Made by a program: the position numbers and the translations under genes. A DNA stretch of 64,000 nt from Anaeromyxobacter sp. (GTDB lineage Bacteria; Myxococcota; Myxococcia; Myxococcales; Anaeromyxobacteraceae): the NCBI GenBank assembly GCA_035627135.1, contig DASPMI010000193.1, positions 1,708 to 65,707 of the forward strand, written 5' to 3'. This document shows, piece after piece, positions 35,481-42,178 of this stretch (its first letter is position 1; each line of letters begins with the position of its first letter). Below the pieces are notes generated by a model, which was given only the letters and a program-made list of their open reading frames with translations, did no database searches and was not told the DNA's origin.

Positions 35481-36064
35481 CGCGCGGCCGCGGCAGCCCT
35501 CCCGCGGACGAGCCGGCGCGGAAGCGCCGCGCCGCGCCGGGCTGGGGCGGCGCGCGCGTGCTCGCGATCGGTCACTCGACGCGGCCGATCGAGGAGCTCC
35601 TCGGGCTCCTCCAGGGGGCCGGCGTCCGCACGCTCGCCGACATCCGGACCGTGCCGCGCTCCCGCAAGAACCCGCAGTTCGAGGGTCGCGCGCTCGCGCG
35701 CTCGCTCGCGCGCGCGGGGATCGCCTACGCGTGGCTCCCGCGGCTCGGCGGCCTGCGGCGGCCGCGCAAGGACTCGCCGAACGCCGGGTGGCGCAACACC
35801 AGCTTCCGCGGCTACGCGGATCACATGGCGACGGCGGAGTTCGCCGAGGGCCTGCGCGAGCTGTCCGCGCTCGCGCGCGAAGGGCCGGTCGCGGTGATGT
35901 GCGCCGAGGCCGTGCCGTGGCGGTGCCACCGGTCGCTGCTCGCGGACGCGCTCCTCGCGCGCGGGGTGGGCGTGGAGCACATCACCGGGCCGGGAAAGAC
36001 GCGGCCCCACCGGCTGACGCCGTTCGCGAGGATCGAGGGACGGAGCGTCACCTATCCGGAGTGA
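35477..36064 (+). CDS. DUF488 family protein
   Basis: IGHSTR, DIRTVPRSR, MCAEAVPWRCHR. Confidence 0.92.
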   Translation: MTRGRGSPPADEPARKRRAAPGWGGARVLAIGHSTRPIEELLGLLQGAGVRTLADIRTVPRSRKNPQFEGRALARSLARAGIAYAWLPRLGGLRRPRKDSPNAGWRNTSFRGYADHMATAEFAEGLRELSALAREGPVAVMCAEAVPWRCHRSLLADALLARGVGVEHITGPGKTRPHRLTPFARIEGRSVTYPE

Positions 36065-36067
36065 CGA

Positions 36068-37320
36068 CCGACCCAGAGGTCCGGCGCTGCGGCGCTGGAC
36101 GGTCGTCCGGCGCGGGCTGAAACCGACTAGAGGCTACGTCCAAGTCGCGGTCGAGCGGCGGAATCGGCCCAGGTGGGGCAATCGTAGGCCTGCGTCGCGA
36201 CCATCGAGCCGTCGTGTGCAGGTCACCGCGGGGTGCCTGTGGGATCCGAGACGAGCTTGGGCCTTCGAGGGAGCACTCGCGGACGAGAACGCCGTCTGCG
36301 TCGGCGTGATCATCAGCTGCTCGCGCACGAGACCCCGAACCTCACGCGCATCAGGTAGGTGCCGAGCGGGAAGACGGCCTTCCGTTCGCCGCAGCAATAA
36401 CTCTCGAGGGCGGTTCGGTAGCGCTCGAGGAAACGGGCGAGCCGCTCGAGGGCGTCGATGCGCTTCTGCGGGTCGCGCGCGGCGATCCTCGGATTGAGGC
36501 GGCGTCGGGGTTCACGAGTCGCCGGGCGGTCCGTGTGCTTCTGCTTCATCACGCGGCGCGCGCCCACGACGGCCACGCCGCGCGCCTCACGTCGGGCTGC
36601 AGCCTCCTCCTCGAGCTCGGTGACGCGGGCGACGACCTTCGCCCTGAACGCGTCGACCGACTCGAAGCCGGGCGGAGCCGAGAACACGAGCTCTGCGCCC
36701 TCACGCATCGAGCCGTCCTCCGCGAAGTAGTGGCCCGGGCACTCGATTCGCTCGCCGGGCCCGCCGATCGAACGCGGGTCCGACCAGATCCCGGGCCACT
36801 GACGGCCGTGCTCGACGAGGTCTGCGCTCGCCGGGTTCGCGAGCGTGTAGGCGACCTTCTCCACGACATCGTCGGGCGTGACGAGGACGACGGCGCTGTA
36901 GCTGCCCGGTGCCCAGAAGTTCTCCCAGCGTCCGTGGAGCGCGTTCAGGGCTTTCGCGACCACGCCATCGAGGAGCTGACCGAACGCCGGGAGGTTCGCG
37001 CGGCAATCGGTGACGACCAGGTGGTAGTGGTTGCTCATGACGCAGACGGCGTGAACGAGGATGCCGTGGCGAGCCGCCGCGACCGCGAGCACGAACTTGA
37101 ACACGAGGTTCGTGAGCACCGAGGGCTTGAGGAGGAACTCGCGCTGGGAGCATCGGCGTGAGACGAGGTACGTCGTGCCTCTGGCGATCCGTCGAGGTGC
37201 GGTCACGGGAGCTGCCGTCGCAGGACGTGTGCCAACGCAACCGTCCCAAAGCTCAGGAGAGGACCCCCAGTGATCGTCCGCGCCGCGACCCCCAGTCCGC
37301 CCGGCGGACCTCTGGGTCGG
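36068..37320. mobile_element. RAYT-containing element bounded by perfect 16-bp inverted repeats
   Basis: ccgacccagaggtccg (36068-36083) is the exact reverse complement of cggacctctgggtcgg (37305-37320). Confidence 0.75.
36313..37206 (-). CDS. REP-associated tyrosine transposase (HUH/Y1, RAYT-like)
   Basis: TYLVSRRC, MSNHYHLVV (HUH), VAYTLANP (catalytic Tyr); GTG start. Confidence 0.9.
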   Translation of the reverse strand: MTAPRRIARGTTYLVSRRCSQREFLLKPSVLTNLVFKFVLAVAAARHGILVHAVCVMSNHYHLVVTDCRANLPAFGQLLDGVVAKALNALHGRWENFWAPGSYSAVVLVTPDDVVEKVAYTLANPASADLVEHGRQWPGIWSDPRSIGGPGERIECPGHYFAEDGSMREGAELVFSAPPGFESVDAFRAKVVARVTELEEEAAARREARGVAVVGARRVMKQKHTDRPATREPRRRLNPRIAARDPQKRIDALERLARFLERYRTALESYCCGERKAVFPLGTYLMRVRFGVSCASS

Positions 37321-37348
37321 ACGCCGCCTTGAGCGGGGCGCGTCGCTG

Positions 37349-38140
37349 GTGTACGAGAGGCAGGTGAAGAACGCCGACCGCTGGGAGCCGAGCAAGTACC
37401 GCCTGCGGCGCGGAAAGCTGGAGGCCTCCCGGGATCGCGGCGAGGTCTCCGTGGGCTCCCGGCTCATCGCCGACGCCATCGCCGCTCAGTACGGGACCAA
37501 GCTCCCCCGGTACGCGCGGGGCCGCCTCGTCGATCTCGGCTGCGGGAAGGTGCCGCTGTACGAGGCCTACCGGGACCTCGTCACCGAGGTCGTCTGCGTG
37601 GACTGGGCGAACACCCCGCACCAGAGCCCGTTCCTCGACCGGACGGTCGATCTCGACGGACCGCTGCCCTGGGACGCCGAGCGGTTCGACACCGCGATCC
37701 TCTCCGACGTCCTCGAGCACGTGCAGCGCCCCGAGCACCTGCTGCAGGAGGTGGCGCGGATCCTCTCGCCGGGCGGCCGGCTCCTCCTGAACGTCCCGTT
37801 CCTGTACGCCATCCACGAGGCCCCGCACGACTACTACCGGTACACGGAGTTCGCGCTCCGTCGAATGGTCGAGCTCTGCGGTCTCCGCCTCGTGGAGCTG
37901 GAGGCGCTCGGCGGCGGCGCGCAGGTCCTCGCCGATCTCACGGCGAAGCTCCTCCTGCGCTTCGGGCTCCTGGGGCGACCAGTGGCCGCGTTCGTCCAGT
38001 GGTACGCCGGCATGCTCCTGCGGACCCGGCGCGGCCGCCGGCGCGCGGCGCGATCCGCCCGCAGGTTCCCCCTCGGCTACTTCCTGGTCGTCGAGAAGCC
38101 CGGCCCCGGGGCCGCGGAACCGTCCGCCTCGGCCGGCTGA
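37349..38140 (+). CDS. Class I SAM methyltransferase (type 11)
   Basis: VDLGCG, DVLEHV, LSPGGRLLLNVPF, HDYYRYT. Confidence 0.9.
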   Translation: MYERQVKNADRWEPSKYRLRRGKLEASRDRGEVSVGSRLIADAIAAQYGTKLPRYARGRLVDLGCGKVPLYEAYRDLVTEVVCVDWANTPHQSPFLDRTVDLDGPLPWDAERFDTAILSDVLEHVQRPEHLLQEVARILSPGGRLLLNVPFLYAIHEAPHDYYRYTEFALRRMVELCGLRLVELEALGGGAQVLADLTAKLLLRFGLLGRPVAAFVQWYAGMLLRTRRGRRRAARSARRFPLGYFLVVEKPGPGAAEPSASAG

Positions 38141-39336
38141 GCGCCCCTGGTGCGCCCCGCCGGGCCGGACGCGCCTCCGCCAGCGCCTTCGCCCGCGATC
38201 GCGGCGCGGTAGACGTCCATCAGCGCATCCCCCTGCGCGCGGAGCGAGTGGCGCGCGCGGACGTGGTGGAGGCCACGACGGGACACCGCGGCGATCTCCT
38301 CCGGCGAGGCGGTCCGCAGGCGCCGGATCGCCGCCGCGATCCCGTCCACGTCCCGCTCCTCGGCGAGGAGGAAGTGGTTCTCGGCCGGGATGCCCTCCGG
38401 GATCCCGGCGTGCCGCGTGCTCACGCACGGCAACCCGAGCGCCTGGGCCTCGAGGAGGACCATCGGCAACCCTTCGCGATCCCCGTTCTCGGCGGTGCGG
38501 CTGCACAGCAGGAACGCGTCGCTCGCCTCCATCTGCGCCCGGGCGGCGGAGTGCTCCAGCGCCCCCGTGAGGCGGACGCGGCCGTCGAGCCCGAGCTCGG
38601 CGATGCGCGCCCGGACCAGCGGCTCCAGCGGCCCGTCGCCCACGATGTCCAGCTCGACCGGGTGACCTTCCGCGGCCAGCCGCGCGAGCGCCGCCAGCGC
38701 GTCGAGGTGCCCCTTCTTGTCGACGATCCGGCCCACCGTCACGAAGCGGACGGGAGGGCGGTCGCGCTCCCGGAACGGATACGCCGACAGGTCCTTGCCG
38801 TTCGGGATCACGGAGATCCGTGCGCCGTCCAGGCCGGCGTCCTCGAGGCCGCGCCGGAGCGCCGCCGCCACGACGATCACGCGGTTGCGACCGCGGGTGA
38901 GCGCCGGGAACCACCGGCGCCGCCGCGCGTCCTGCAGCTGCTCGGAGGCGTCGTATCCGTGGAACGTCGTGACGAGCGGGATCCCGAGCTGCCGGGCGAC
39001 GGGTGCGGCCACGACGCCGACGTCGCCGTACTGCGCGTGGATCACGTCGGGCCGGAAGGATCGCGCGACCGCCGCCAGCTCGCGACGGACGCCGACCCAC
39101 GTCGTGATCAACGTGGGGTCGGGCGAGAACCACGAACCGACCCAGTCCCGCAGCTTCCCGACGGGGCCACCGCGCGGGGACACCAGCGCGAAGGGCTCGA
39201 ACGGGCGCGCGGCTGCGTTCAGCCGGCGCCGCGCAGCGACCATGACCTCGGCGCGGGTGCTGGTCTCCTGGACGACGTCGTAGATGAACGTCTCCGTCAG
39301 GCGCGAGAACTCCCAGGCGAAGTGGAGGACTCGCAT
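38077..39336 (-). CDS. GT4 glycosyltransferase (WcaL-like)
   Basis: ETFI, TTFHGYD, GRIVDKKG, EGLPMVLLEA. Confidence 0.92.
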   Translation of the reverse strand: MRVLHFAWEFSRLTETFIYDVVQETSTRAEVMVAARRRLNAAARPFEPFALVSPRGGPVGKLRDWVGSWFSPDPTLITTWVGVRRELAAVARSFRPDVIHAQYGDVGVVAAPVARQLGIPLVTTFHGYDASEQLQDARRRRWFPALTRGRNRVIVVAAALRRGLEDAGLDGARISVIPNGKDLSAYPFRERDRPPVRFVTVGRIVDKKGHLDALAALARLAAEGHPVELDIVGDGPLEPLVRARIAELGLDGRVRLTGALEHSAARAQMEASDAFLLCSRTAENGDREGLPMVLLEAQALGLPCVSTRHAGIPEGIPAENHFLLAEERDVDGIAAAIRRLRTASPEEIAAVSRRGLHHVRARHSLRAQGDALMDVYRAAIAGEGAGGGASGPAGRTRGAQPAEADGSAAPGPGFSTTRK

Positions 39337-39341
39337 CGGCG

Positions 39342-40415
39342 TCACTCTCGACGGGCCGGCGCCGGCCCCGCGTAGAACGCGCGCACTCGCTCCAGCTCCT
39401 CGGGACCGTAGAGCCGCTCGATGCGGCTGCGCGCCTCGGCTCCCACGCGCGCCCGGAGGGCGGGATCGTCGCGGAGGAGCCGGATCCGCTCCGCCGCCTG
39501 CGCGTCGTCGTCGAACACGAACCCGCTGCGGCCGTCCTCGACGAGCTCCTCCGCGTACCCGCCTGCCCGGTGGCACACGACCGGGAGCCCGGACGCCATC
39601 GCCTCGGCGACGACGCGGCCGTACGGCTCTGGCCACTCGTCGGCGGTCCGGTACACGAAGCAGTCGAGGCTCCGCAGGAAGTCCGCCGGGTCCTCGGCGC
39701 CGACGGCGAGGAGCTCGACGTTCGGCGCGCCGGCGAGCGAGCGGGCGAGGCACGTGGCGCCCATGAGCCGCACGCGGATCCCCTCGGCGCCGAGCGCGCG
39801 GAACAGGGCCGCGTCGCCGGGGCCGAACTTGATCGCCGAGTCGCGGGAGAGGCGACCCACCGTGAACTGCGCACCCGCGGGGCGGGTTGCGGGGCGGAAC
39901 CGCTCGAGGTCGATGGGCGAGAGGTGCACGACGCCGGTCATCCGCGTGGACCGCGCCACCTTGCGCGAGCAGAAGACCAGCTCCGTGGCGGGGAGCGGCC
40001 AGCCGTGGAGGCGCCGCAAGCGCTTCTGGAGTGTCGCGACGTTGAGCGTGTTGTGGATGAGGATCACGCGGCGCGGGAAGGACGCGCGGACCCACACGCC
40101 GATCGGCGACGTGCCCACGAAGACGATCGTGCCGCCGCGCGGGAAACGGCCCAGCGCAGGAACGATGCGGCGCACGCCGGCGTCGCGGTAACAGTCCGCG
40201 ACGCGCGTGGAGCTCCACACGTGCACCGTGGCCGAGCCGCGGAGCGTCGCGGCGAGCTGGAGCGTCCGCTCCTGCGATCCGCCCTTCACCTTGAAGAGCG
40301 TGACGAGGTGGATCGTGGGGAGCGGGGCCGGCGCGCCTTCGCGGGCGGCCTCGGCGGTCTCGCGGGAGCGCTCGACGCGGCGCCCCGCGTCGACCTGTGT
40401 GCGCCCGGAGTTCAT
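39342..40415 (-). CDS. GT4 glycosyltransferase
   Basis: GGSQ, EPYGRVVAEAMASGLPVV. Confidence 0.88.
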   Translation of the reverse strand: MNSGRTQVDAGRRVERSRETAEAAREGAPAPLPTIHLVTLFKVKGGSQERTLQLAATLRGSATVHVWSSTRVADCYRDAGVRRIVPALGRFPRGGTIVFVGTSPIGVWVRASFPRRVILIHNTLNVATLQKRLRRLHGWPLPATELVFCSRKVARSTRMTGVVHLSPIDLERFRPATRPAGAQFTVGRLSRDSAIKFGPGDAALFRALGAEGIRVRLMGATCLARSLAGAPNVELLAVGAEDPADFLRSLDCFVYRTADEWPEPYGRVVAEAMASGLPVVCHRAGGYAEELVEDGRSGFVFDDDAQAAERIRLLRDDPALRARVGAEARSRIERLYGPEELERVRAFYAGPAPARRE

Positions 40416-40471
40416 CGCAGGGCCCGGAACTTACTCCACGGGCTCCGGCGCAGCAAGGCGGGTGGTCGGCC

Positions 40472-42178
40472 TCAAGGGGCGAGCGTCCGCCGGAACAGCT
40501 CGATGAGCGCCGTGTTGGCGTTCGCCGGGTCGGGCGGCGTCGGGTAGTCGCCCCAGAAAATCCCGAACGCGCTCTCGTGGTACGAGTGGTACGTCCACGC
40601 GATGTCGCGGGTCGCGAGGAGGTCGAGCATGTCGCCGACCCACGCCGTCCCGCCACGCTCGAAGGCGGCGCGGATCGCGCCGAACTCGCCGAGGTAGAGC
40701 GGCACGCCGTGCGCCTCGCCCCAGGCCGCGAACCGGTCGAGCTCGGCAGCGAGGAGCGCCTTCTCGCGCCCCAGGAGCGGCGCGGAGCTCGTCAGGAAGT
40801 CGAGCCGGCCGAGCGAGGTCGAGCCGGCGCGGCTCCCCTCCGCGCGCGCCCAGTACTTGAGCTCGTAGGTGTTCCCCGTCACGACGGGGAAGAAGTACAT
40901 GTCGGCGGAGAGCGACGCGTCCGTGGTCGTCCCGGCGATCCCGACGGAGCGCGTGCCCGCGTGGCCGTCGCGCCCGGCGACGCGCGCGCCGGGGGCGCCC
41001 GGCGTCGCCACCCAGAGGCTCCACGCGGAGGGGTCCTCGACGTCGACCTTGAAGACCTGCCGCACGAGCCGGCCCTCCGGGTCGTACTCGTTCACCTCGA
41101 AGTCGTCGAAGTACACGGTCCCCGCGTTCCGCTGCGACATGAAGACCGGCCGCCCGACGTTCCAGGTCGAGTCCGTGACCGTGAAACGGACGGAGTACGC
41201 GGTCCATGGCGAGGTGCCGTCGGGGACGCGGAGCCGTCCGGCCTCTGGCGTGCCGTCCCAGCTCCAGTGCTTCCACGCGAGCGTGCTCCAGGAGACGCTG
41301 ACGGCCGACGGATCCGGGTACGTCGTCGGGACCTGGCAGCAGGTCACCCACGACGCGAGCTGGTGCGTGAACTCCATCGGCGTGTAGACGTGGAACTCGT
41401 AGAGGACGTTCGGGTCGTCCACCACGAAGAAGTTCAGATCGGCGTCGTTCGACCAGTCCGCCGCGCCGCTCCCGTCGGCGCGCCGCCCGTTGAGCCGCTC
41501 GACGGTCACGATGTGCCACGGGTCCACCAGGCGGATGGCCCGGACGATCCGGTTCGCGAGCCGCTCCCACTGCTCCTTCTCCCCGGCGACCACCGGCTCG
41601 TTCACGAGGTCGTATCCGGCGATCGTCGGCTCGCCGCGGTAGCGGCGCGCGATCGCCTTCCAGAGCGCCGTGAGGCGATCCTGGTTCCGCACGTCCGTCC
41701 AGAGCGCCGTGCCGCGGGAGAGCGACTGGAACCCGCCCTGGGGCACGTGCATGTTGAGCATGAGCCGCACGCCGTGCGCCTTCGCCCAGGCGACGTTCTG
41801 GTCGATCCACTGGAACCCGGACTCCTTGTACCGGCCCGGCGCGGAGTCGTCCTCGAAGGTCCGGTAGTTCAGGTAGAAGCGGACGAGGTTCATCCCCATG
41901 TCCGCGACGCGCTGGTAGTCGATCTCGCCGTGGTGCGCCGTCGGGAGCGGGACGTTGGACCAGACGGCGTTTCCGAACGCGACCCCGCGGAGCGCGACCG
42001 GGTTGCCGCCGTCGTCCACGATCCGCCGGCCCGAGACCCGGAGGATCCCGGCGGGGCGCGGCCCCGGATCCTCGACCGTCCCGTCGTCGGGGCCGACCCC
42101 CTGCCCGCCCGTGGCGCACGAGAGGAGGGTGGCCAGGGCAACGACGGCGACGCGGGAGGAGCTCGGCGAGGGGCGCAT
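40472..42178 (-). CDS. GH5 glycoside hydrolase lipoprotein with inserted CBM-like domain
   Basis: Lipobox LLSC, YDLVNEP acid/base, YLGEFG nucleophile, EFHVY. Confidence 0.9.
   Translation of the reverse strand: MRPSPSSSRVAVVALATLLSCATGGQGVGPDDGTVEDPGPRPAGILRVSGRRIVDDGGNPVALRGVAFGNAVWSNVPLPTAHHGEIDYQRVADMGMNLVRFYLNYRTFEDDSAPGRYKESGFQWIDQNVAWAKAHGVRLMLNMHVPQGGFQSLSRGTALWTDVRNQDRLTALWKAIARRYRGEPTIAGYDLVNEPVVAGEKEQWERLANRIVRAIRLVDPWHIVTVERLNGRRADGSGAADWSNDADLNFFVVDDPNVLYEFHVYTPMEFTHQLASWVTCCQVPTTYPDPSAVSVSWSTLAWKHWSWDGTPEAGRLRVPDGTSPWTAYSVRFTVTDSTWNVGRPVFMSQRNAGTVYFDDFEVNEYDPEGRLVRQVFKVDVEDPSAWSLWVATPGAPGARVAGRDGHAGTRSVGIAGTTTDASLSADMYFFPVVTGNTYELKYWARAEGSRAGSTSLGRLDFLTSSAPLLGREKALLAAELDRFAAWGEAHGVPLYLGEFGAIRAAFERGGTAWVGDMLDLLATRDIAWTYHSYHESAFGIFWGDYPTPPDPANANTALIELFRRTLAP

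What the first reader, a model, noticed from the sequence alone, without database searches (positions are those of the whole stretch)
36068..37320. RAYT HUH transposase bracketed by perfect 16-bp inverted mini-hairpin repeats
Seen: the identical inverted 16-mers each contain a GACC-CAGA-GGTC hairpin. Two related GACCCCCAGT copies (37262-37271, 37287-37296) lie upstream of the gene. The unit sits cleanly between the DUF488 stop and the methyltransferase start, with no clear target duplication. The enzyme has an intact HUH and Tyr plus a long C-terminal extension ending FPLGTY. Established: Y1 enzymes act on ssDNA hairpins, not TIRs. Inference: a REPtron with its own REP class, different from the abundant A/B/C repeats in this window, or a self-mobile RAYT unit.
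Basis: partly seen in the sequence, partly recalled or inferred. Interest (0 to 1): 0.7.

Follow-up and report, generated by a model that had tools for sequence, protein, structure and literature searches.

The report
Mobile RAYT-like element with inverted ends
This is one copy of a small jumping-gene family of Anaeromyxobacter: a single RAYT-like single-strand DNA nuclease gene bounded by short inverted end motifs. It is a mobile relative of the domesticated REP-associated transposases, not a REP system.

Summary
Identical 16-mers lie inverted at 36068-36083 and 37305-37320 around a Y1/HUH gene. The real gene is 36313-37206 (minus strand), with a GTG start, and encodes 297 aa.

The unit is not a single-copy REPtron. 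The genome holds at least five copies, and similarity between them stops at the end motif. All 24 same-genus genomes searched carry 1-17 copies.

Across the family a 12-nt core, CCnGACCsrGAG, sits about 113-127 nt before the start codon and inverted about 190-280 nt after the stop. The variant of this core differs between protein clades.

The motif is not dispersed: 11-18 copies per genome, mostly beside gene copies. The nearest relative has an empty DUF488|methyltransferase junction, and other copies also vary in presence between relatives. No target duplication is seen.

The N-terminal half folds like E. coli TnpA-REP. The C-terminal ~150 aa match nothing known. A sigma-54-type promoter sits 13-14 nt before the start codon.

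Verdict: a self-mobile, TIRtron/TIRYT-like insertion sequence, a new variant of a known kind. The mechanism is inferred, not shown.

The parts
36068..36083 (+). Terminal inverted repeat on the 3' side of the gene (CCGACCCAGAGGTCCG, read inward). It contains the family core CCnGACCsrGAG.
   Evidence: Similarity among the copies in this genome ends here. The core is conserved in inverted orientation after the stop codon in 60 of 109 loci.
36084..36312 (-). Non-coding 3' spacer of 229 nt. Its length is kept (about 190-280 nt) but its sequence is poorly conserved.
   Evidence: In G008 the spacer is 62-97% identical between copies whose CDS is 99% identical.
36252..36280 (-). Conserved GCGAG..CTCG..GCTCG block inside the spacer. 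It could form alternative short stems. Function unknown.
   Evidence: Alignment of five 3' regions from this genome. Coordinates.
36313..37206 (-). Gene for a 297-aa Y1/HUH nuclease (GTG start). HUH codons are at 37021-37029, Tyr120 lies within 36832-36852, and FPLGTY is at 36355-36372.
   Evidence: AlphaFold model pLDDT 80.8. Best fold match is 4er8_A, E. coli TnpA-REP, TM 0.75 over 148 columns. Pfam Y1_Tnp scores 17.1 bits (below the 23-bit cut-off) and NCBIfam REP_Tyr_transpos 39 bits (below 80).
37220..37234 (-). Sigma-54-type -24/-12 promoter element, TGGCAC-N5-CTGC. The C of TGC lies 13 nt before the GTG, which implies a nearly leaderless mRNA.
   Evidence: GGCAYR-N4-5-TGC is present in 67 of 91 unique upstream regions at 13-14 nt from the start, against 0 of 910 control windows. 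rpoN is present in this genome.
37262..37309 (-). Subterminal block of GGAC/GTCC half-sites: palindrome GTCCGCC-G-GGCGGAC (37295-37309), GCGGCGCGGAC (37276-37286) and two ACTGGGGGTC copies (37262-37271, 37287-37296).
   Evidence: A CGGACC-N2-6-GGTCCG palindrome plus a third GCGGCGCGGACC half-site is conserved at this position across 55 non-redundant copies.
37305..37320 (-). Terminal inverted repeat on the 5' side of the gene.
   Evidence: The core sits 113-127 nt before the start codon in about 75 of 109 loci. The wrong orientation is almost never seen.

Best explanation
Window 36068-37320 is one 1,253-bp copy of an autonomous, IS-like element family that is widespread in Anaeromyxobacter.

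Shown:
- The unit carries one gene, a 297-aa enzyme. Its N-terminal half is a Y1/HUH single-strand DNA nuclease of the RAYT/TnpA-REP type.
- The unit is bounded by inverted copies of a short end motif with the family core CCnGACCsrGAG. Here the motif is extended to a perfect 16-mer.
- Whole units are present or absent at given sites in close relatives, and they carry no target-site duplication.
- The end-motif variant differs between protein clades.

Inferred:
- The enzyme recognises the end motif, probably together with the neighbouring GGAC/GTCC palindromes, on DNA made single-stranded during replication.
- It nicks through Tyr120 with the HUH-bound metal, and strand transfer moves the whole unit.
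- Because the ends are inverted, there are two options. The two ends may be cut on opposite strands. Or they may pair as a panhandle in single-stranded DNA so that both cuts fall on one strand.
- Repeated end processing would explain the tandem arrays of ends beside some copies.
- The gene is read from a sigma-54-type promoter as a nearly leaderless mRNA, so movement would depend on an enhancer-binding activator.
For: Copies in this genome: there are at least four 5' ends and five 3' ends, mostly at contig ends. Similarity between them starts and stops at the motif.

Distribution: all 24 same-genus genomes searched have 1-17 copies, against two marginal hits in 16 other genera of the order.

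Recent activity: five G008 copies are 98.9-99.7% identical in the CDS and sit in unrelated flanks.

Empty site: the joined flanks match G015:C621 contiguously at 89% identity.

Further presence/absence differences for the copies at C16, C90, C137, C150 and C154.

In G010, a 3.17-kb deletion ends flush with the element's 5' terminus.

The core motif lies at a fixed distance and orientation in 60-75 of 109 loci, with about 3 hits in the wrong orientation. End variants cluster by protein clade.

Unit length is 1241-1290 bp with no TSD in more than 30 copies.

The motif occurs only 11-18 times per genome.

Fold and catalytic residues.

These copies are the only Y1 genes in this genome.
Against: - No transposition event, circle or excision junction was observed. 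The one public run gave contigs only and showed no empty-site joint.
- The empty site is not perfectly clean. G015 has a 12-nt spacer where the window has CGA...AC.
- The copy at the same site in G010 is more diverged (CDS 78.6%) than the flanking genes (87.5-87.8%). Simple orthology does not explain it.
- Inverted ends do not fit the same-strand peel-and-paste scheme of IS200/IS605.
- The protein scores below the curated cut-offs of Pfam Y1_Tnp and NCBIfam REP_Tyr_transpos.
Confidence: 0.8

Rival explanations
1. Classical REPtron: a domesticated, single-copy RAYT that spreads its own REP/REPIN class through the genome. The 16-mers would be the flanking REPs.
For: The gene is flanked by short inverted repeats, as RAYT genes are. 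Some relatives have tandem clusters of the repeat on both sides. The best fold match is E. coli TnpA-REP.
Against: - The gene is multi-copy.
- The repeat occurs only 11-18 times per genome, mostly beside gene copies.
- There is no GTAG/GTGG tag.
- The NCBIfam RAYT model scores 39 bits against a cut-off of 80.
- Whole units are insertion-polymorphic.
Confidence: 0.05
2. A non-mobile paralogous gene family. The conserved flanks would be regulatory (an upstream activator site plus a terminator), and differences between genomes would come from deletions.
For: The 5' block holds a sigma-54-type promoter and palindromes that could be an activator site. Many copies are old and diverged, at 41-80% identity.
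Against: - Five 99%-identical copies lie in unrelated contexts in G008.
- Similarity ends exactly at the motif on both sides.
- The same motif is inverted at the far end, where no promoter is needed.
- The empty site joins the flanks within a few bases.
Confidence: 0.08
3. The inverted ends are used by a different transposase encoded elsewhere (for example a DDE enzyme), and the HUH gene is only a passenger.
For: Terminal inverted repeats are typical of DDE elements, not of Y1 elements.
Against: - No target-site duplication in more than 30 copies.
- End variants track the HUH protein clades.
- The unit has no other ORF, and the motif is not found apart from the gene in numbers.
Confidence: 0.05
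4. The two 16-mers are a chance inverted match in GC-rich DNA.
For: In window shuffles, 6 of 100 gave two or more matches at up to 2 mismatches.
Against: The match is exact. It recurs at the ends of at least four other copies in this genome and beside homologues in many genomes.
Confidence: 0.01

Closest known systems
TIRtrons / TIRYTs (TIR-associated tyrosine transposases; Di Nocera et al. 2013, PMC3733652; linked to subclass 2.1 by Quentin et al. 2018, PMC6006769)
   Same: A RAYT-like Y1 gene flanked at roughly fixed distances by inverted repeats that are unrelated to GTAG REPs. The repeats are at most moderately abundant and are sometimes clustered.
   Different: - The end core is CCnGACCsrGAG, not GGGGWSAS.
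- The C-terminal domain matches no HTH/DnaA_C family.
- This family is clearly multi-copy, with empty sites.
- It has a sigma-54-type promoter.
- Anaeromyxobacter is not mentioned in either paper.
RAYT / TnpA-REP with REPtron (E. coli, PDB 4ER8; Bertels et al. 2017, PMC5581495)
   Same: Best structural match for residues 1-150. HUH, the Tyr helix with YxxxNP, and a following WPGxWS motif are present. The flanking repeats are inverted and in places clustered.
   Different: - Not single copy and not purely vertically inherited.
- No dispersed REP/REPIN population and no GTAG tag.
- Twice the length.
- Behaves like the IS-like RAYT groups rather than the domesticated ones.
IS200/IS605 TnpA elements (IS608, ISDra2)
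   Same: Y1/HUH fold, multiple copies, no target duplication, and a palindrome just inside the left end.
   Different: - Here the ends are inverted repeats, not two same-strand subterminal hairpins.
- The right end has no conserved palindrome.
- The enzyme is 297 aa with an extra domain.
- No tnpB.
- No target tetranucleotide was identified.

Membership tests
Y1 HUH nucleases (Pfam Y1_Tnp, PF01797) | HUH metal-binding motif | tested here: met
   H60-Y-H62, invariant in 31 homologues.
Y1 HUH nucleases (Pfam Y1_Tnp, PF01797) | Single catalytic Tyr on the helix after the fourth strand | tested here: met
   Y120 in AYTLANP is invariant. It lies in helix 111-127 of the model.
Y1 HUH nucleases (Pfam Y1_Tnp, PF01797) | Score over the curated Pfam cut-off | tested here: not met
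   17.1 bits against a cut-off of 23 for the window protein. All 31 family members do hit the model, with a best E-value of 1.3e-9.
Y1 HUH nucleases (Pfam Y1_Tnp, PF01797) | Fold | tested here: met
   Foldseek: 4er8_A at TM 0.75, then ISDra2, IS608 and IS200 TnpA, all at probability 1.00.
RAYT / REPtron | One copy per REP class per genome | tested here: not met
   Nine tblastn places in this genome and 1-17 copies in relatives.
RAYT / REPtron | The flanking repeat belongs to an abundant dispersed REP/REPIN population | tested here: not met
   11-18 motif hits per genome in nine genomes, mostly beside gene copies.
RAYT / REPtron | REP made of a GTAG-type tag plus an imperfect palindrome | tested here: not met
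   The core is CCnGACCsrGAG with no GTAG. The palindrome arm is clade-specific and is broken in the G010 variant.
RAYT / REPtron | NCBIfam REP_Tyr_transpos cut-off | tested here: not met
   39.1 bits against a cut-off of 80.
TIRtron / TIRYT | RAYT-like gene flanked by inverted repeats unrelated to GTAG REPs | tested here: met
TIRtron / TIRYT | GGGGWSAS motif in the repeat (main group only) | tested here: not met
   No such motif is seen in the alignments of the ends. The paper states that other TIRs are unrelated to one another.
TIRtron / TIRYT (subclass 2.1) | C-terminal HTH domain (Bac_DnaA_C, HTH_23 or HTH_28) | tested here: not met
   No Pfam hit in the C-terminal half of any of the 31 members, even at E<=1.
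IS200/IS605 | Subterminal hairpins at both ends on one strand, with no terminal inverted repeats | tested here: not met
   Inverted termini are present. A conserved palindrome is found only inside the 5' end.
IS200/IS605 | No target-site duplication | tested here: met
IS200/IS605 | Insertion next to a specific tetra- or pentanucleotide | tested here: inconclusive
   Only a few empty sites are available, and their flanks are diverged.

The most novel reading that the evidence does not exclude
This may be an undescribed autonomous insertion-sequence family with four features:
- a Y1/HUH transposase carrying a new, conserved ~150-aa C-terminal domain;
- 12-nt inverted termini that co-evolve with the enzyme;
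- termini that can multiply into tandem arrays;
- sigma-54-dependent, nearly leaderless expression.

It would be a living intermediate between IS200-type elements and domesticated RAYT/REP systems. It could show how REP clusters start and how a Y1 enzyme handles inverted ends.
Probability: 0.4. Interest if true: 0.65.

Novelty: new variant of a known kind. Interest (0 to 1): 0.45.

Why it matters
RAYTs are the textbook case of a domesticated bacterial transposase. How they arose from mobile Y1 elements, and how REP clusters form, are still open questions.

This family offers a tractable mobile relative:
- whole units that come and go between close strains;
- end motifs that track the enzyme's phylogeny;
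- arrays of 1-10 end copies beside otherwise identical elements.

It also poses a mechanistic puzzle, because a single-tyrosine ssDNA nuclease is working with inverted ends. And it adds a sigma-54 promoter as a possible control of transposition.

On the practical side, these elements break Anaeromyxobacter assemblies. NCBI leaves them as hypothetical proteins and IMG calls them RayT.

Tried and rejected
- **Genome-wide 9-mer core counts.** Most hits are chance matches in coding DNA, so only the longer motif is informative.
- **Reads.** One soil-metagenome run is held, as contigs only. It shows contig breaks and extra depth over the HUH region but no empty-site or circle joint. Uninformative.
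- **PDB by sequence.** Only E~0.9 hits to ISDra2 TnpA. Fold search was needed.
- **C-terminal domain alone.** The model was poor (pLDDT 68, pTM 0.38) and gave no PDB match.
- **Plasmid collection.** No full-length homologue.
- **Orientation relative to replication.** The gene lies on the C-rich strand in 5 of 6 copies on contigs with clear GC skew. This is too few to claim, and a hand check of the complete genomes, assuming the origin at position 1, was mixed.
- **Pairing the broken 5' and 3' ends of the other copies through relatives.** Only a doubtful C90/C35 pairing came out.
- **Hairpin as the conserved feature.** Rejected.
- **Literature.** Nothing on this family in Anaeromyxobacter.

Full report
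**Observation.** The 16-mer CCGACCCAGAGGTCCG lies at 36068-36083. Its exact reverse complement lies at 37305-37320. No direct repeat flanks the unit.

The long ORF from ATG 37479 overruns the unit. Paralogous copies align only from a conserved GTG at 37206, which gives a 297-aa protein, P0001. FPLGTY is residues 279-284, with 13 residues after it.

**The protein.**
- Pfam Y1_Tnp scores 17.1 bits (cut-off 23), and NCBIfam REP_Tyr_transpos scores 39 bits (cut-off 80). Both are below threshold.
- H60-Y-H62, Y120 in AYTLANP, and a following WPGxWS are invariant or nearly so in 31 homologues.
- An AlphaFold model (pLDDT 80.8) matches E. coli TnpA-REP bound to a REP hairpin best (4er8_A, TM 0.75 over 148 columns). 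ISDra2, IS608 and IS200 TnpA come next.
- Residues ~150-297 match no Pfam family and no PDB fold. They hold invariant F279, P280, G282, T283, Y284, R287 and C294.
- A profile search finds 1,195 clusters (at the 50% identity level) at E<1e-30, over the full length. Named genomes are mostly Anaeromyxobacter and Anaeromyxobacteraceae. Members at 40-47% identity occur in Polyangiaceae, Haliangium and Planctomycetota MAGs.
- IMG labels relatives 'RayT'. NCBI labels one 'hypothetical protein'.

**Not single copy.** The window is C193:1708-65707 of a 5.12-Mb, 206-contig genome with 73.8% GC.
- tblastn and blastn find further copies on C150, C90, C137, C16, C35, C154 and C178, plus a fragment on C31. 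Nearly all lie at contig ends.
- The 12-mer GACCCAGAGGTC occurs 11 times, against about 1 expected from base composition (my estimate). Eight of these are the ends of gene copies, and C178 has a one-base variant.
- Alignments of four 5' ends and five 3' ends show that similarity begins and stops at the motif.
- These copies are the only Y1 genes in the genome.

**Genus-wide pattern.** All 24 same-genus genomes searched hold 1-17 copies at 41-80% identity. Sixteen other genera of the order give two marginal hits.
- In 109 full-length loci, the core G[AT]CC[CG][AG]GAG, preceded by CCn, lies 113-127 nt before the start codon in about 75. It lies inverted, mostly 190-280 nt after the stop, in 60. 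The wrong orientation appears about three times in all.
- Clades that miss this pattern have related variants at the same places.
- The bases after GAG differ by clade (GTC, TAA, TTC, AAG, ACG and others) and cluster on the protein tree. The window's clade of nine has SH-aLRT support of 99.
- Single-ended units measure 1241-1290 bp and show no target duplication.

**The hairpin.** The GGTC arm that pairs with GACC exists only in the window's clade and one other. Copies in G010 read GTCCCAGAGGTCC, which breaks the stem without compensation. The ssDNA fold is unremarkable. The conserved feature is therefore the sequence motif, not the mini-hairpin.

**Not a REP population.** The pattern CSGACCSAGAGKWM gives 11-18 hits per genome in nine genomes, four of them complete. 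The control gives 2-6. Most hits lie beside gene copies.

**Mobility.**
- The two flanks of the window copy, joined, match G015:C621 contiguously at 89% identity. There a 12-nt spacer (GGCCTGGCGTCG) stands in place of the element.
- The C16 and C90 copies are absent in G018. The C137 copy is absent in G015. The C154 copy is absent in G010 and G015. The C150 copy is absent in G010 but present in G015.
- In G008, five copies are 98.9-99.7% identical in the CDS and sit in unrelated flanks.
- In G010, an element lies at the same DUF488 site, but window 37319-40488 is missing flush with the 5' end. That copy is more diverged (CDS 78.6%) than the flanking genes (87.5-87.8%). This suggests either a separate insertion at the same site or conversion by a paralogue.

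**Inside the unit.** After the 5' motif comes a CGGACC-N2-6-GGTCCG palindrome and a third GCGGCGCGGACC half-site. Then comes GGCACG-N4-(C/T)TGC, the sigma-54 -24/-12 consensus.
- This promoter element is present in 67 of 91 unique upstream regions, against 0 of 910 control windows. The C of TGC lies 13-14 nt before the start codon.
- rpoN is present in the genome. I infer sigma-54-dependent, nearly leaderless expression.
- At the 3' end only the terminal ~17 nt are conserved.

**Mechanism.** The following is inference.
- The Y1 enzyme recognises the end motif on single-stranded DNA, nicks via Tyr120 and transfers strands, moving the unit without a staggered cut.
- Inverted ends imply either cuts on opposite strands or a panhandle between the two ends in ssDNA.
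- Tandem arrays of ends (1-7 at the 5' side, 1-10 at the 3' side) and a 5' partial duplication joined exactly at the end look like by-products of end processing.

**Comparison with known kinds.** The closest described kind is the TIRtron/TIRYT: a RAYT-like gene flanked by inverted repeats unrelated to GTAG REPs (PMC3733652; PMC6006769).
- This family differs in end motif, C-terminal domain, copy number and promoter.
- It fails the defining features of a REPtron and of IS200/IS605 (see the membership table).
- Bertels et al. already noted IS-like RAYT groups (PMC5581495).
- No paper found mentions this family in Anaeromyxobacter.

**Verdict.** The 'self-mobile unit' reading is supported, and the 'own REP class' reading and the hairpin emphasis are not. 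This is a new variant of a known kind, of moderate interest.

Noticed in passing
L021-L025 (G008 copies), the ~205 nt after the stop codon: Among copies whose CDS is 98.9-99.7% identical, the 3' spacer is only 62-97% identical. In this genome, C154 and C178 share 141 identical coding bases and then become unalignable right after the stop. The pattern is mosaic or hypervariable and is unexplained.
   Followed up: partly
L021 635-669 and 1989-2023 (G008:C13): One copy is flanked by a 35-bp direct duplication of the target, CCCTGCCCTCGCGTCGCGCCTCAAGGCCGAGGAGG. No other copy shows a duplication of 11 bp or more.
   Followed up: partly
L022, L024, L025 (G008); L010 (G006:C1:4604134-4605571): End motifs occur as tandem arrays, 1-7 copies on the 5' side and 1-10 on the 3' side. 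The numbers differ between otherwise near-identical elements.
   Followed up: partly
L025 465-676 (also in L101): A partial 5' duplication: the 5' UTR plus 26 codons of a copy is joined at ...CTTCGG|TTCCCCGACCC to the end of a complete element. This places the 5' boundary 2-4 nt outside the CC of the core.
   Followed up: partly
L002 (G010:C342) compared with window 37319-40488: G010 lacks the methyltransferase and glycosyltransferase segment (3.17 kb). The deletion edge lies exactly at the element's 5' terminus, next to the GH5 gene. The G010 end also carries a partial repeat, GGGTCTGGCTTCA, twice.
   Followed up: partly
own genome: C16, C90, C137, C35, C150, and window 36062-36083: Six of nine element ends lie within 1-11 nt of the stop codon of the neighbouring gene. 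This could reflect a target preference for gene ends or selection against disruptive insertions.
   Followed up: no
whole genome (k-mer count): Other abundant repeats are unrelated to this element: (CCCGAG)n with CCCGTGAACGAGCCCG (about 150-230 copies), a CRISPR-like repeat CGGTTCATCCCCACGCGCGTGGGGA (70 copies), and CCTTCGACAGGCTCAGGGCGAGCGG (about 45-55 copies). No classical RAYT or IS200 gene is present to account for them.
   Followed up: partly
own genome contigs C193, C90, C137, C35, C178, C154: On contigs with clear GC skew, the gene lies on the C-rich (lagging-like) strand in 5 of 6 copies. This is only a hint of orientation bias.
   Followed up: partly
window 36313-37479 (-): The mechanical ORF extends 91 codons upstream of the real GTG start, across the element end and into the methyltransferase start region. 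It would mislead gene callers.
   Followed up: yes
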